Made by a program: the position numbers and the translations under genes. A stretch of 64,000 nt of DNA from the human T2T-CHM13v2.0 reference genome, Homo sapiens. The stretch lies in NCBI RefSeq assembly GCF_009914755.1, contig NC_060929.1. One strand, written 5' to 3'. This document shows positions 29,105 through 51,503 of this stretch, piece by piece (positions within the stretch are counted from its first letter, which is position 1; each line of letters opens with the position of its first letter). Below the pieces are notes generated by a model. It was not told the DNA's origin. It searched no databases and saw only the letters and a list, made by a program, of their open reading frames with translations.

Positions 29105-32100
29105 ATGACAGGATCAAATTCACACATAACACTATTAACTTTAAATGTAAATGGACTAAATGCTCCAATTAAAAGACACAGACTGGCAAATTGGATAAAG
29201 AGTCAAGACCCATCAGTGTGCTGTATTCAGGAAACCCATCTCACGTGCAGAGACACACATAGGCTCAAAATAAAAGGATGGAGGAAGATCTACCAAGCAA
29301 ATGGAAAACAAAAAAAGGCAGGGGTTGCAATCCTAGTCTCGGATAAAACAGACTTTAAACCAACAAAGATCAAAAGAGACAAAGAAGGCCATTACATAAT
29401 GGTAAAGGGATCAATTCAACAAGAAGAGCTAACTATTCTAAATATATATGCACCCAATACAGGAGCACCCAGATTCATAAAGCAAGTCCTGAGTGACCTA
29501 CAAAGAGACTTAGACTCCCACACATTAATAATGGGAGACTTTAACACCCAACTGTCAACATTAGACAGATCAATGAGACAGAAAGTCAACAAGGATACCC
29601 AGGAATTGAACTCAGCTCTGCACCAAGCAGACCTAATAGACATCTACAGAACTATCCACCCCAAATCAACAGAATATACATTCTTTTCAGCACCACACCA
29701 CACCTATTCCAAAATTGACCACATAGTTGGAAGTAAAGCTCTCCTCAGCAAATGTAAAAGAACAGAAATTATAACAAACTATCTCTCAGACCACAGTGCA
29801 ATCAAACTAGAACTCAGGATTAAGAATCTCACTCAAAATTGCTCAACTACATGGAAACTGAACAACCTGCTCCTGAATGACTACTGGGTACATAACGAAA
29901 TGAAGGCAGAAATAAAGATGTTCTTTGAAACCAACGAGAACAAAGACACAACATACCAGAATCTCTGGGACACATTCAAAGCAGTGTGTAGAGGGAAATT
30001 TATAGCACTAAATGCCCACAAGAGAAAGCAGGAAAGATCCAAAATTGACACCCTAACATCACAATTAAAAGAACTAGAAAAGCAAGAGCAAACACATTCA
30101 AAAGCTAGCAGAAGGCAAGAAATAACTAAAATCAGAGCAGAACTGAAGGAAATAGAGACACAAAAAACCCTTCAAAAAATTAATGAATCCAGGAGCTGGT
30201 TTTATGAAAGGATCAACAAAATTGATAGACCACTAGCAAGACTAATAAAGAAAAAAAGAGAGAAGAATCAAATAGATGCAATAAAAAATGATAAAGGGGA
30301 TATCACCACTGATCCCACAGAAATACAATCTACCATCAGAGAATACTACAAACACCTCTACACAAATAAACTAGAAAATCTAGAAGAAATGGATAAATTC
30401 CTCAACACATACACTCTCCCAAGACTAAACCAGGAAGAAGTTGAATCTCTGAATAGACCAATAACAGGAGCTGAAATTGTGGCAATAATCAAAACTTACC
30501 AACCAAAAAGAGTCCAGGACCAGATGGATTCACAGCTGAATTCTACCAGAGGTACAAGGAGGAACTGGTACCATTCCTTCTGAAACTATTCCAATCAATA
30601 GAGAAAGAGGGAATCCTCCCTAACTCATTTTATGAGGCCAGCATCATCCTGATACCAAAACCTGACAGAGACACAACCAAAAAAGAGAATTTTAGACCAA
30701 TATCCTTGATGAACATTGATGCAAAAATCCTCAATAAAATACTGGCAAACCGAATCCAGCAGCACATCACAAAGCTTATCCACCATGATCAAGTGGGCTT
30801 CATCCCTGGGATGCAAGGCTGGTTCAATATACGCAAATCAATACGTGTAATTCAGCATATAAACAGAACCAAAGACAAAAACTACATGATTATCTCAATA
30901 GATGCAGAAAAGGCCTTTGACAAAATTAAACAATGCTTCATGCTAAAAACTCTCAATAAATTAGGTATTGATGGGATGTATCTCAAAATAATAAGAGCTA
31001 TCTATGACAAACCCACAGCCAATATCATTCTGAATGGGCAAAAACTGGAAGCATTCCCTTTGAAAACTGGCACAAGACAGGGATGCCCTCTCTCACCACT
31101 CCTATTCAACATAGTGTTGGAAGTTCTGGCCAGCGCAATTAGGCAGGAGAAGGAAATAAAGGGTATTCAATTAGGAAAAGAGGAAGTCAAATTGTCCCTG
31201 TTTGCAGACGACATGATTGTATATTTAGAAAACCCCATTGTCTCAGCCCAAAATCTCCTTAAGCTGATCAGCAACTTCAGCAAAGTCTCAGGATACAAAA
31301 TCAATGTACAAAAATCACAAGCATTCTTATACACCAATAACAGACAAACAGAGAGCCAAATCATGAGTGAACTCCCATTCACAATTGCTTCAAAGAGAAT
31401 AAAATACCTAGGAATCCAACTTACAAGGGATAGGAAGGACCTCTTCAAGGAGAACTACAAACCACTGCTCAAGGAAATAAAAGAGGATACAAACAAATGG
31501 AAGAACATTCCATGCTCATGGGTAGGAAGAATCAATATCGTGAAAATGGCCATACTGCCCAAGGTAATTTACAGATTCAATGCCATCCCCATCAAGCTAC
31601 CAATGACTTTCTTCACAGAATTGGAAAAAACTACTTTAAAGTTCATCTGGAACCAAAAAAGAGCCCGCATCACCAAGTCAATCCTAAGCCAAAAGAACAA
31701 AGCTGGAGGCATCACACTACCTGACTTCAAGCTATACTACAAGGCTACAGTAACCGAAACAGCATGCAGAGCCCTCAGAATTAATGCTGCATATCTACAA
31801 CTATCTGATCTTTGACAAACCTGAGAAAAACAAGCAATGGGGAAAGGATTCCCTATTTAATAAATGGTGCTGGGAAAACTGGCTAGCCATATGTAGAAAG
31901 CTGAAACTGGATCCCTTCCTTACACCTTATACAAAAATTAATTCAAGATGGATTAAAGACTTACATGTTAGACCTAAAACCATAAAAACCCTAGAAGAAA
32001 ACCTAGGCATTACCATTCAGGACATAGGCATGGGCAAGGACTTTATGTCTAAAACACCAAAAGCAATGGCAACAAAAGCCAAAATTGACAAATGGGAGCT

Positions 32101-48625: not shown

Positions 48626-51503
48626 TTTTTTTATTATACTTTAAGTTTTAGGGTACATGTGCACATTGTGCAGGTTAGTTACATATGTATACATGTGCCA
48701 TGCTGGTGCGCTGCACCCACTAACTCGTCATCTAGCATTAGGTATATCTCCCAATGCTATCCCTCCCCCCTCCCCCGACCCCACCACAGTCCCCAGAGTG
48801 TGATATTCCCCTTCCTGTGTCCATGTGATCTCATTGTTCAATTCCCACCTATGAGTGAGAATATGCCGTGTTTGGTTTTTTGTTCTTGTGATAGTTTACT
48901 GAGAATGATGATTTCCAATTTCATCCATGTCCCTACAAAGGACACGAACTCATCATTTTTTATGGCTGCATAGTATTCCATGGTGTATATGTGCCACATT
49001 TTCTTAATCCAGTCTATCATTGTTGGACATTTGGGTTGGTTCCAAGTCTTTGCTATTGTGAATAATGCCGCAATAAACATACGTGTGCATGTGTCTTTAT
49101 AGCAGCATGATTTATAGTCCTTTGGGTATATACCCAGTAATGGGATGGCTGGGTCAAATGGTATTTCTAGTTCTAGATCCCTGAGGAATCGCCACACTGA
49201 CTTCCACAATGGTTGAACTAGTTTACAGTCCCACCAACAGTGTAAAAGTGTTCCTATTTCTCCACATCCTCTCCAGCACCTGTTGTTTCCTGACTTTTTA
49301 ATGATTGCCATTTTAACTGGTGTGAGATGGTATCTCATTGTGGTTTTGATTTGCATTTCTCTGATGGCCAGTGATGGTGAGCATTTTTTCATGTGTTTTT
49401 TGGCTGCATAAATGTCTTCTTTTGAGAAGTGTCTGTTCATGTCCTTCGCCCACTTTTTGATGGGGTTGTTTGTTTTTTTCTTGTAAATTTGTTTGAGTTC
49501 ATTGTAGATTCTGGATATTAGCCCTTTGTCAGATGAGTAGGTTGCGAAAATTTTCTCCCATTTTGTAGGTTGCCTGTTCACTCTGATGGTAGTTTCTTTT
49601 GCTGTGCAGAAGCTCTTTAGTTTAATTAGATCCCATTTGTCAATTTTGGCTTTTGTTGCCATTGCTTTTGGTGTTTTGAACATGAAGTCCTTGCCCATGC
49701 CTATGTCCTGGATGGTAATGCCTAGGTTTTCTTCTAGGGTTTTTAAGGTTTTAGGTCTAACGTTTAAATCTTTAATCCATCTTGAATTGATTTTTGTATA
49801 AGGTCTAAGGAAGGGATCCAGTTTCAGCTTTCTACATATGGCTAGCCAGTTTTCCCAGCACCATTTATTAAATAGGGAATCCTTTCCCCATTGCTTGTTT
49901 TTCTCAGGTTTGTCAAAGATCAGATAGTTGTAGATATGCGGCGTTATTTCTGAGGGCTCTGTTCTGTTCCATTGATCTATATCTCTGTTTTGGTACCAGT
50001 ACCATGCTGTTTTGGTTACTGTAGCCTTGTAGTATAGTTTGAAGTCAGGTAGTGTGATGCCTCCAGCTTTGTTCTTTTGGCTTAGGATTGACTTGGTGAT
50101 GCGGGCTCTTTTTTGGTTCCATATGAACTTTAAAGTAGTTTTTTCCAATTCTGTGAGGAAAGTCATTGGTAGCTTGATGGGGATGGCATTGAATCTGTAA
50201 ATTACCTTGGGCAGTATGGCCATTTTCACGATATTGATTCTTCCTACCCATGAGCATGGAATGTTCTTCCATTTGTTTGTATCCTCTTTTATTTCCTTGA
50301 GCAGTGGTTTGTAGTTCTCCTTGAAGAGGTCCTTCCTATCCCTTGTAAGTTGGATTCCTAGGTATTTTATTCTCTTTGAAGCAATTGTGAATGGGAGTTC
50401 ACTCATGATTTGGCTCTCTGTTTGTCTGTTGTTGGTGTATAAGAATGCTTGTGATTTTTGTACATTGATTTTGTATCCTGAGACTTTGCTGAAGTTGCTT
50501 ATCAGCTTAAGGAGATTTTGGGCTGAAACAATGGGGTTTTCTAGATATACAATCATGTCGTCTGCAAACAGGGACAATTTGACTTCCTCTTTTCCTAATT
50601 GAATACCCTTTATTTCCTTCTCCTGTCTAATTGCCCTGGCCAGAACTTCCAACACTATGTTGAATAGGAGTGGTGAGAGAGGGCATCCCTGTCTTGTACC
50701 AGTTTTCAAAGGGAATGCTTCCAGTTTTTGCCCATTCAAATAGACACAATAAAAAATGATAAAGGGGATATCACCACTGATCCCACAGAAATACAAACTA
50801 CCATCAGAGAATACTACAAACACCTCTATGCAAATAAACTAGAAAATCTAGAAGAAATGGATAAATTCCTCAACACATACACTCTCCCAAGACTAAACCA
50901 GGAAGAAGTTGAATCTCTGAATAGACCAATAACAGGAGCTGAAATTGTGGCAATAATCAAAACTTACCAACCAAAAAGAGTCCAGGACCAGATGGATTCA
51001 CAGCTGAATTCTACCAGAGGTACAAGGAGGAACTGGTACCATTCCTTCTGAAACTATTCCAATCAATAGAAAAAGAGGGAATCCTCCCTAACTCATTTTA
51101 TGAGGCCAGCATCATTCTGATACCAAAGCCGGGCAGAGACACAACCAAAAAAGAGAATTTTAGACCAATATCCTTGATGAACATTGATGCAAAAATCCTC
51201 AATAAAATACTGGCAAACCGAATCCAGCAGCACATCAAAAAGCTTATCCACCATGATCAAGTGGGCTTCATCCCTGGGATGCAAGGCTGGTTCAATATAC
51301 GCAAATCAATAAATGTAATCCAGCATATAAACAGAGCCAATGACAAAAACCACATGATTATCTCAATAGATGCAGAAAAAGCCTTTGACAAAATTCAACA
51401 ACCCTTCATGCTAAAAACTCTCAATAAATTAGGTATTGATGGGACGTATTTCAAAATAATAAGAGCTATCTATGACAAACCCACAGCCAATATCATACTG
51501 AAT
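48626..51503 (-). mobile_element. 5'-truncated, 5'-inverted (twin-primed) L1PA2-like element
   Basis: Poly-T and 3' part on the minus strand (48626-50738), inverted part on the plus strand (50736-51503); TSD gggttttacattt at 48613-48625 and 51504-51516; gagatcacatgg and gacGAGtta diagnostics; ORF2 C-terminal ~630 codons open. Confidence 0.94.

What the first reader, a model, noticed from the sequence alone, without database searches (positions are those of the whole stretch)
30363..51070. Two L1s of different subfamilies flanking MARCOL share identical tracts with apparently private mutations
Seen by manual comparison: 30363-30602 equals 50831-51070 (240 bp, direct) and 31339-31611 equals the reverse complement of 50158-50430 (273 bp, inverted), while flanking sequence differs every few tens of bases. 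The first tract includes the same -1 ORF2 frameshift (aatcAAAACttacc at ~30491 and ~50959; both give [12 protein letters not shown]). The second includes gggatAGgaag (RDRKDLF, where I recall the consensus as RDVKDLF). 3' UTR diagnostics differ (gagaacac vs gagatcac). Inference: non-allelic gene conversion in both orientations between copies ~20 kb apart.
Basis: partly seen in the sequence, partly recalled or inferred. Interest (0 to 1): 0.7.

Follow-up and report, generated by a model that had tools for sequence, protein, structure and literature searches.

The report
Gene conversion between neighbouring LINE-1 copies
Two separately inserted copies of the human jumping gene LINE-1, 20 kb apart on chromosome 5, share two identical patches of about 250 bases that carry very rare mutations, likely because one copy served as the repair template for the other, which is a known process.

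Summary
Observation confirmed. A (27115-33170, +) is a full-length, older, broken L1 with its own 18-bp target-site duplication (TSD). B (48626-51503) is one younger 5'-inverted L1 with a 13-bp TSD, so 'both orientations' comes from B's own inversion. A and B differ at 2.9% of sites but are identical over 240 and 273 bp (permutation p=0.00055; 0 of 320 control pairs). The frameshift allele occurs in 2 of 3,944 genomic copies, both here. The AG doublet occurs in 5 of 11,227, so it is rare but not private, and a wider sub-lineage is refuted. Best reading (0.85): two post-insertion non-allelic gene conversion events. Tract 2 probably ran B to A (about 17:1); tract 1 is unresolved. Tract size and number match published human rates. 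Two extras: a young L1HS 1.6 Mb away carries the same doublet in an open ORF2, and an unrelated inverted L1 pair on chr7 shows the same signature. Reads, other haplotypes and apes could not be checked. No function is implied.

The parts
27115..33170 (+). Element A: full-length L1, older group (late L1PA3-like; subfamily name from recalled diagnostics). ORF1 stops after aa 97, ORF2 stops after aa 492, 41-bp deletion after 31766
27097..27114 (+). A target-site duplication, 5' copy (18 bp)
33171..33188 (+). A target-site duplication, 3' copy
48626..50738 (-). Element B, non-inverted 3' part with poly(A), equivalent to A 31031-33100; younger group (L1PA2-like; name recalled). Forms an inverted repeat with A, spacer 15,455 bp
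50736..51506 (+). Element B, inverted 5' part, equivalent to A 30268-31038. Forms a direct repeat with A, offset 20,468 bp. 3-bp overlap at the inversion junction (50736-50738) and 3-bp overlap with the TSD (51504-51506)
48613..48625 (.). B target-site duplication (13 bp), poly(A) side
51504..51516 (.). B target-site duplication (13 bp), 5' side
30363..30602 (+). Tract 1 in A (240 bp): shared substitution plus 1-bp deletion at 30493-30495 (ORF2 codon 463) and two shared CpG decays (30404, 30537)
50831..51070 (+). Tract 1 in B; variant at about 50961-50963
31339..31611 (+). Tract 2 in A (273 bp): shared AG doublet at 31432-31433
50158..50430 (-). Tract 2 in B; doublet at 50336-50337
35045..40106 (+). 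MARCOL, lying between the two L1s; a bystander, not altered by the tracts
   Evidence: annotation supplied with the finding
47526..55061 (-). Much older L1 (71-76% identity to A) into which B is inserted; pieces 47526-48361, 48517-48623 and 51505-55061

Best explanation
The two L1s are separate insertions of different age that share two identical patches, likely because non-allelic gene conversion copied about 250 bases from one into the other twice, well after both had inserted. Shown: separate TSDs, different subfamily states on both sides of each tract, the identity of the tracts, and the rarity of the shared alleles. Shown: B is one 5'-inverted insertion, which gives A a direct partner (tract 1) and an inverted partner (tract 2). 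Inferred: a germline break in one copy was repaired by strand invasion into the 97%-identical neighbour and resolved without crossover, since the TSDs, the flanking subfamily states and MARCOL are not rearranged. Inferred: two events rather than one, because 735 bp rich in A-private alleles separate the tracts. Inferred: tract 2 went from B to A; tract 1's direction is open. The event is predicted to be neutral, because both copies are dead for other reasons.
For: Frameshift allele in 2 of 3,944 copies, both here; only 6 copies have any 1-3 bp deletion at that site. Doublet in 5 of 11,227. Outside the tracts A has the old-group state and B the young-group state at 11 of the 16 diagnostic sites (the other 5 are young in both). 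In the two tracts A and B are each other's nearest copy (0 differences, against at least 4 and at least 2 to any other); in 4 of the other 5 segments some panel copy is closer to A than B is or about as close, and B always has closer panel copies than A. Permutation and control pairs. If the tracts were as old as B, 5.0 differences would be expected, P(0)=0.007. Published human values are a mean tract of 250 bp and 2.5e-7 per base per generation (10.1101/135152, abstract), which predict 0.8-1.7 tracts for this pair over 150,000-300,000 generations (B's age is recalled). An independent pair on chr7 shows the same signature.
Against: Only one assembly was examined, with no reads, second haplotype or ape outgroup. 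Tract ends are defined by identity, which biases the age test: with ends extended to the next shared CpG decays (716 bp, 3 non-CpG differences) P rises to 0.09. On a strict 'allele shared only by the pair' count A-B scores just 1, a level 192 of 1,378 control pairs also reach, because that count leaves out gaps and CpG sites. The doublet has arisen independently in at least two old copies. The published rate comes from gene duplicates and falls with divergence, so the fit of the numbers is loose.
Confidence: 0.85

Rival explanations
1. Assembly or polishing artefact: reads of one copy overwrote the other in the consensus.
For: Tract sizes resemble short-read spans; the two copies are 97% identical; no reads could be checked.
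Against: Both copies sit in unique flanks within long-read reach. CHM13 polishing considered 993 small variants genome-wide, about two-thirds homopolymer or 2-mer changes, with filters and marker-assisted validation (10.1101/2021.07.02.450803, section 6). The chr7 pair's tract contains later differences, which a consensus overwrite would not leave.
Confidence: 0.05
2. Chimera made at insertion: B's nascent cDNA switched template to neighbouring A during twin priming or repair.
For: B is a complex twin-primed insertion, and the tracts lie on either side of its inversion point.
Against: Both tracts are internal and flanked by B-type alleles, so four switches are needed. About 5 differences should have accumulated since B inserted (P(0)=0.007). 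Tract 2 looks B-like rather than A-like.
Confidence: 0.05
3. Shared source sub-lineage, or chance identity plus recurrent mutation.
For: Single long runs are not rare (6 of 163 control pairs have one of 273 or more). CpG decays recur. The doublet recurs in 3 other copies.
Against: No other copy has the frameshift allele (2 of 3,944). The three other doublet carriers lack it. A and B belong to different age groups at 11 flanking diagnostic sites. A frameshifted ORF2 is a poor source element (established cis-preference; recalled).
Confidence: 0.03
4. Inversion toggling: the MARCOL segment inverted by crossover between A and B and later inverted back, leaving tract 2 as a crossover-associated conversion.
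For: A and B form a 2.1-kb, roughly 97%-identical inverted repeat; L1-mediated inversions have a median similarity of 97.1% (PMC9675761, passages).
Against: There is no swapped segment: A keeps old-group and B young-group states on both sides of tract 2, and both TSD pairs are intact. It does not explain tract 1. No matching variant was found in the supplements searched.
Confidence: 0.02

Closest known systems
Non-allelic (interlocus) gene conversion in human duplicates (Harpak et al., 10.1101/135152; Vollger et al., PMC10172114)
   Same: Tract length about 250 bp, non-reciprocal local identity between similar loci, and a number of tracts near the published rate
   Different: The substrates are two independent retrotransposon insertions at about 97% identity, not gene duplicates or segmental duplications
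Gene conversion between neighbouring Alu elements (Aleshin and Zhi 2010, as summarised in Fawcett and Innan, PMC6598467)
   Same: Homogenisation between nearby copies of different subfamilies
   Different: L1 rather than Alu; 15-20 kb here against under 10 kb reported; individual tracts are resolved by rare shared alleles
Recombinant L1s: L1 gene conversion (Burton et al. 1991, title only), 35 recombinant calls among 2,267 HPRC full-length L1s (PMC13192797), 1.3-2.8% of duplicated L1 pairs with a recombination signal (PMC7827986)
   Same: Mosaic L1 copies formed after insertion
   Different: In the passages read, those screens assign donor groups or detect dips in identity; here the specific partner copy is identified, and it is 5'-truncated, so a full-length screen would not include it
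5'-inverted L1 by twin priming (Ostertag and Kazazian 2001, via the review PMC10760644)
   Same: B has one TSD, an inverted 5' part and microhomologies at the junctions
   Different: None; B is a typical case

Membership tests
Non-allelic gene conversion | Tract of identity longer than background divergence allows | tested here: met
   permutation p=0.00055 for the two runs; 0 of 320 control pairs identical over either interval
Non-allelic gene conversion | Shared derived alleles confined to the tract and absent from the family | tested here: met
   2 of 3,944 and 5 of 11,227; the second allele is rare, not private
Non-allelic gene conversion | Donor and acceptor are independent loci, not a duplication | tested here: met
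   different TSDs and flanks; different age groups at 11 diagnostic sites
Non-allelic gene conversion | No crossover: flanking markers not exchanged | tested here: met
   A old-type and B young-type on both sides of each tract; TSD pairs intact
Non-allelic gene conversion | Unidirectional transfer with an identified donor | tested here: inconclusive
   likelihood ratio for donor A against donor B is 1.4 for tract 1 and 0.058 for tract 2
Non-allelic gene conversion | Unconverted ancestral state seen in an outgroup or another haplotype | not testable with these tools
   no ape or second human genome is held; the HPRC L1 supplement was too large to read
Non-allelic gene conversion | Present in raw reads, not an assembly error | not testable with these tools
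   no reads available; argued from polishing statistics only
Twin-primed 5'-inverted L1 (element B) | One TSD flanking both pieces, poly(A) at the 3' end | tested here: met
   13 bp at 48613-48625 and 51504-51516
Twin-primed 5'-inverted L1 (element B) | Inverted piece adjoins the non-inverted piece in L1 coordinates, with a small overlap or deletion and microhomology | tested here: met
   pieces equal A 30268-31038 and 31031-33100 (8-bp overlap); 3-bp microhomologies at both junctions
L1PA3 (A) and L1PA2 (B) subfamily labels | Best match to the Dfam subfamily consensus | not testable with these tools
   no Dfam library; relative age shown by panel grouping and private-allele counts (38 against 11 in 2,279 bp); names are recalled
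Segmental or palindromic duplication | Homology extends into the flanks and is uniform | tested here: not met
   homology ends at the L1 ends and is patchy

The most novel reading that the evidence does not exclude
Young human L1s on the same chromosome arm form a conversion network that reaches megabases. The doublet passed between this dead pair and the fixed L1HS 1.6 Mb away, writing an amino-acid change (arginine at ORF2 residue 777) into an open ORF2. Neighbouring L1PA2/PA3 copies convert each other at about the rate of gene duplicates, often enough to distort L1 phylogenies and dating, and rare shared indels can map donor-acceptor pairs genome-wide from a single assembly.
Probability: 0.4. 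Interest if true: 0.55.

Novelty: new member of a known kind. Interest (0 to 1): 0.3.

Why it matters
As one locus it is a clean but ordinary example of non-allelic gene conversion, with no evident function: both L1s are dead and MARCOL is untouched. It has some practical value. It shows that these two repeats pair in the germline, so the same geometry could delete or duplicate 20.5 kb, or invert the segment, including MARCOL. It also gives a cheap screen (rare L1 alleles shared by neighbours) for measuring conversion between L1 copies, which my paper searches found little direct work on. If the 1.6-Mb link is real, dead copies can alter the coding sequence of young L1s, or the reverse.

Tried and rejected
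Sub-lineage: rejected. Net inversion or swap between A and B: rejected. A as an unusually doublet-prone copy: rejected; it has 3 doublets and 40 rare alleles, within the old-group range of 0-4 and 29-59. Third carrier C as the source or sibling of B: rejected, since C has younger lineage alleles on both sides (31308, 31488) and shares no other rare allele with B. Siblings of C: 21 and 8 copies share one of two C alleles, and only C has both. Other neighbour pairs that gave no clear tract: chr1:219.09 Mb (88% identical, different alleles), chr10:31.67/32.85 Mb (92%), chr3:114.10/114.16 Mb (86%, longest run 56 bp), chr5:152.56/152.57 Mb (89%, longest run 113 bp). The chr11:48.93 Mb pair is a short overlap within one element. 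The chrX:55.73 Mb pair was dropped from the count because it is a 99.7% palindrome. The eight closer-lying panel pairs tested on chr1 showed no run over 150 bp. One search included the common allele by a miscounted gap and is unused (redone as, 16 copies, no neighbours). One search listed only 100 of 189 matches. No PRDM9-type 13-mer (motif recalled) lies in either L1. No MARCOL-region variant was found in the readable supplements of PMC9675761 and PMC12350169 (one scanned file unread in each; GRCh38 positions estimated from a recalled offset). A was not found in the supplements of PMC10883270. The paper search on MARCOL returned only unrelated uses in the listed hits.
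Full report
1. Observation. Both identities are exact, with 0 mismatches over 240 and 273 bp, and each is bounded by mismatches. BLAST of the left L1 against the window gives two hits to the right element: A 30268-31038 to 50736-51506 (direct, 96.9%) and A 31031-33100 to 50738-48624 (inverted, 95.0% including a 41-bp gap).

2. Anatomy. A is a full-length L1 with an 18-bp TSD. Its ORF1 stops after aa 97 and its ORF2 after aa 492, and it has a 41-bp deletion. 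The right element B is one insertion: a 13-bp TSD encloses both pieces, the pieces adjoin in L1 coordinates with an 8-bp overlap, and both junctions have 3-bp microhomology. This is the 5'-inversion structure attributed to twin priming (PMC10760644, passages). It explains the two orientations: tract 1 lies in B's inverted piece and tract 2 in its non-inverted piece. B sits inside a much older L1.

3. Controls. I fetched the first 60 of the 100 listed (of 3,944) copies with intact flanks at the tract-1 site, all on chr1; 53 cover the region nearly fully. Of 19 sites that separate young from old copies, 16 lie outside the tracts. A is old-type and B young-type at 11 of these, and both are young-type at 5. 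A has 38 and B 11 private non-CpG alleles in 2,279 bp outside the tracts, and CpG decay is 13 of 19 against 5 of 19. So these are independent insertions, with A older. The names L1PA3 and L1PA2 rest on recalled diagnostics; no Dfam comparison was possible.

4. Significance. There are 81 mismatches in 2,792 sites. Permutation gives p=0.018 for the longest run and p=0.00055 for a second run of 240 or more. In control pairs of 2.5-3.2% divergence, 6 of 163 have one run of 273 or more and 0 of 163 have a second of 240 or more. 0 of 320 pairs are identical across either interval. One run alone would be unconvincing; the pair of runs and the rare alleles carry the case.

5. Rarity. The tract-1 allele occurs in 2 of 3,944 copies, A and B, and only 6 copies have any short deletion there. 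Tract 1 also shares two CpG decays found in 12% and 17% of the panel. The tract-2 doublet occurs in 5 of 11,227: A, B, two old copies on chr9 and chr22, and a young copy C on chr5; none of the three has the tract-1 allele. A sub-lineage is therefore refuted. Against my reading, a strict count of pair-only alleles without gaps or CpG sites gives A-B only 1, a level 192 of 1,378 control pairs reach.

6. Direction and age. Counting each complex change once and adding CpG state, the likelihood ratio for donor A against donor B is 1.4 for tract 1 and 0.058 for tract 2. Tract 2 therefore probably went B to A; tract 1 is open. Tracts as old as B would have gathered about 5 differences (P(0)=0.007). 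Extending the tracts to the next shared CpG decays (30310, 31672) weakens this to P=0.09. Between the tracts lie 735 bp with many A-private alleles, so two events are inferred. Flanking states and TSDs show no crossover.

7. Fit to known rates. Harpak et al. give a mean tract of 250 bp and 2.5e-7 per base per generation (10.1101/135152, abstract and passages). This predicts 0.8-1.7 tracts for this pair over 150,000-300,000 generations (B's age recalled). The rate comes from gene duplicates and falls with divergence, so the agreement is loose, but it makes the finding unsurprising. Conversion between Alus rises within 10 kb (PMC6598467, passages citing Aleshin and Zhi 2010). L1 recombinants are reported in PMC7827986 (passages) and PMC13192797 (section 18 and passages), whose supplements could not be read and may list A. 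Interlocus events in segmental duplications reach megabase distances (PMC10172114, passages). Burton et al. 1991 was seen as a reference title only. My searches (listings) found no report of this locus; most subscription papers are not in the library.

8. Third carrier. C (chr5:147,145,382-147,151,415, +) is full-length with an open 1,275-aa ORF2 that has arginine at residue 777, and a 357-aa ORF1 whose end is in a shifted frame. It probably corresponds to the L1HS at hg38 chr5:146,609,485-146,615,534, listed as intact in hg38, defective in CHM13 and CHM1, frequency 1 (PMC10883270, supplement row). That match is inferred from a recalled offset plus strand and length. C is from a younger lineage than B and shares only the doublet; it is identical to B from 31309 to 31487. 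The chance that one of three independent carriers falls within 1.65 Mb is about 0.004, a test made after seeing the data. A further short conversion is likelier than recurrence (my estimate is about 0.6), but one doublet in a 179-bp run cannot prove it.

9. Generality. Two of the other four copies with a deletion at the tract-1 site are neighbours on chr7, inverted and 51 kb apart. They are 96.3% identical full-length L1s whose flanks do not align as a duplication. They share the deletion, an allele absent from 53 panel copies and two CpG decays in 347 bp with 2 differences, plus a further allele absent from the panel; 11 of 1,378 control pairs reach 3 pair-only alleles. Across three complete deletion lists (6, 21 and 16 copies), leaving out A/B, two neighbour pairs appeared. 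The chrX pair is a palindrome and was dropped, leaving 1 observed against 0.015 expected (p=0.015). Four other candidate pairs showed no clear tract. The support for generality is suggestive and thin.

10. Artefact. This could not be tested with reads. Genome-wide polishing considered 993 small variants, mostly homopolymer or 2-mer changes (10.1101/2021.07.02.450803, abstract and section 6), so targeted overwriting of two tracts is unlikely.

11. Verdict. A real feature, most likely two gene conversion events between neighbouring L1s (0.85). It is a new instance of a known process, likely neutral. The repeat geometry (direct offset 20,468 bp, inverted spacer 15,455 bp) could rearrange MARCOL, but no such variant was found in the supplements searched. 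Interest 0.3.

Noticed in passing
L068 (G000:C5:147145382-147151415): Full-length young L1HS 1.6 Mb upstream with an open 1,275-aa ORF2 and an ORF1 that ends in a shifted frame (357 aa); it carries the same rare doublet as A and B.
   Followed up: partly
L073/L074 (G000:C7:138083953-138089984 and 138140772-138146792): Two full-length inverted L1s 51 kb apart, 96.3% identical, share a rare 1-bp deletion and other rare alleles in a 347-bp stretch; a 263-bp exact run lies in the 5' part. Likely a second case of conversion between neighbours.
   Followed up: partly
L079 (G000:C23:55726516-55733500): Near-perfect palindrome (99.7%, arms over 3.4 kb, spacer about 40 bp) made of head-to-head L1 copies; its full extent was not fetched.
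   Followed up: partly
window 47526-48623 and 51505-55061: B is nested in a much older minus-strand L1 (71-76% identity to A), in the same orientation as B's 3' part.
   Followed up: partly
window 30310 and 31672: A and B share two more CpG decays just outside the exact tracts; the true tracts may be longer and older, with later mutations.
   Followed up: partly
window 33170-35045: A's 5' UTR promoter faces MARCOL on the same strand and A ends 1.9 kb upstream of its first exon; read-through was not tested.
   Followed up: no
window 14499-15791 and 41994-44758: Two more L1 fragments (86.6% and 67.0% identity to A); not examined for conversion tracts.
   Followed up: no
G000:C2:119533226 and 120056573: Two L1s 523 kb apart share the same uncommon 2-bp deletion allele; not fetched.
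   Followed up: no
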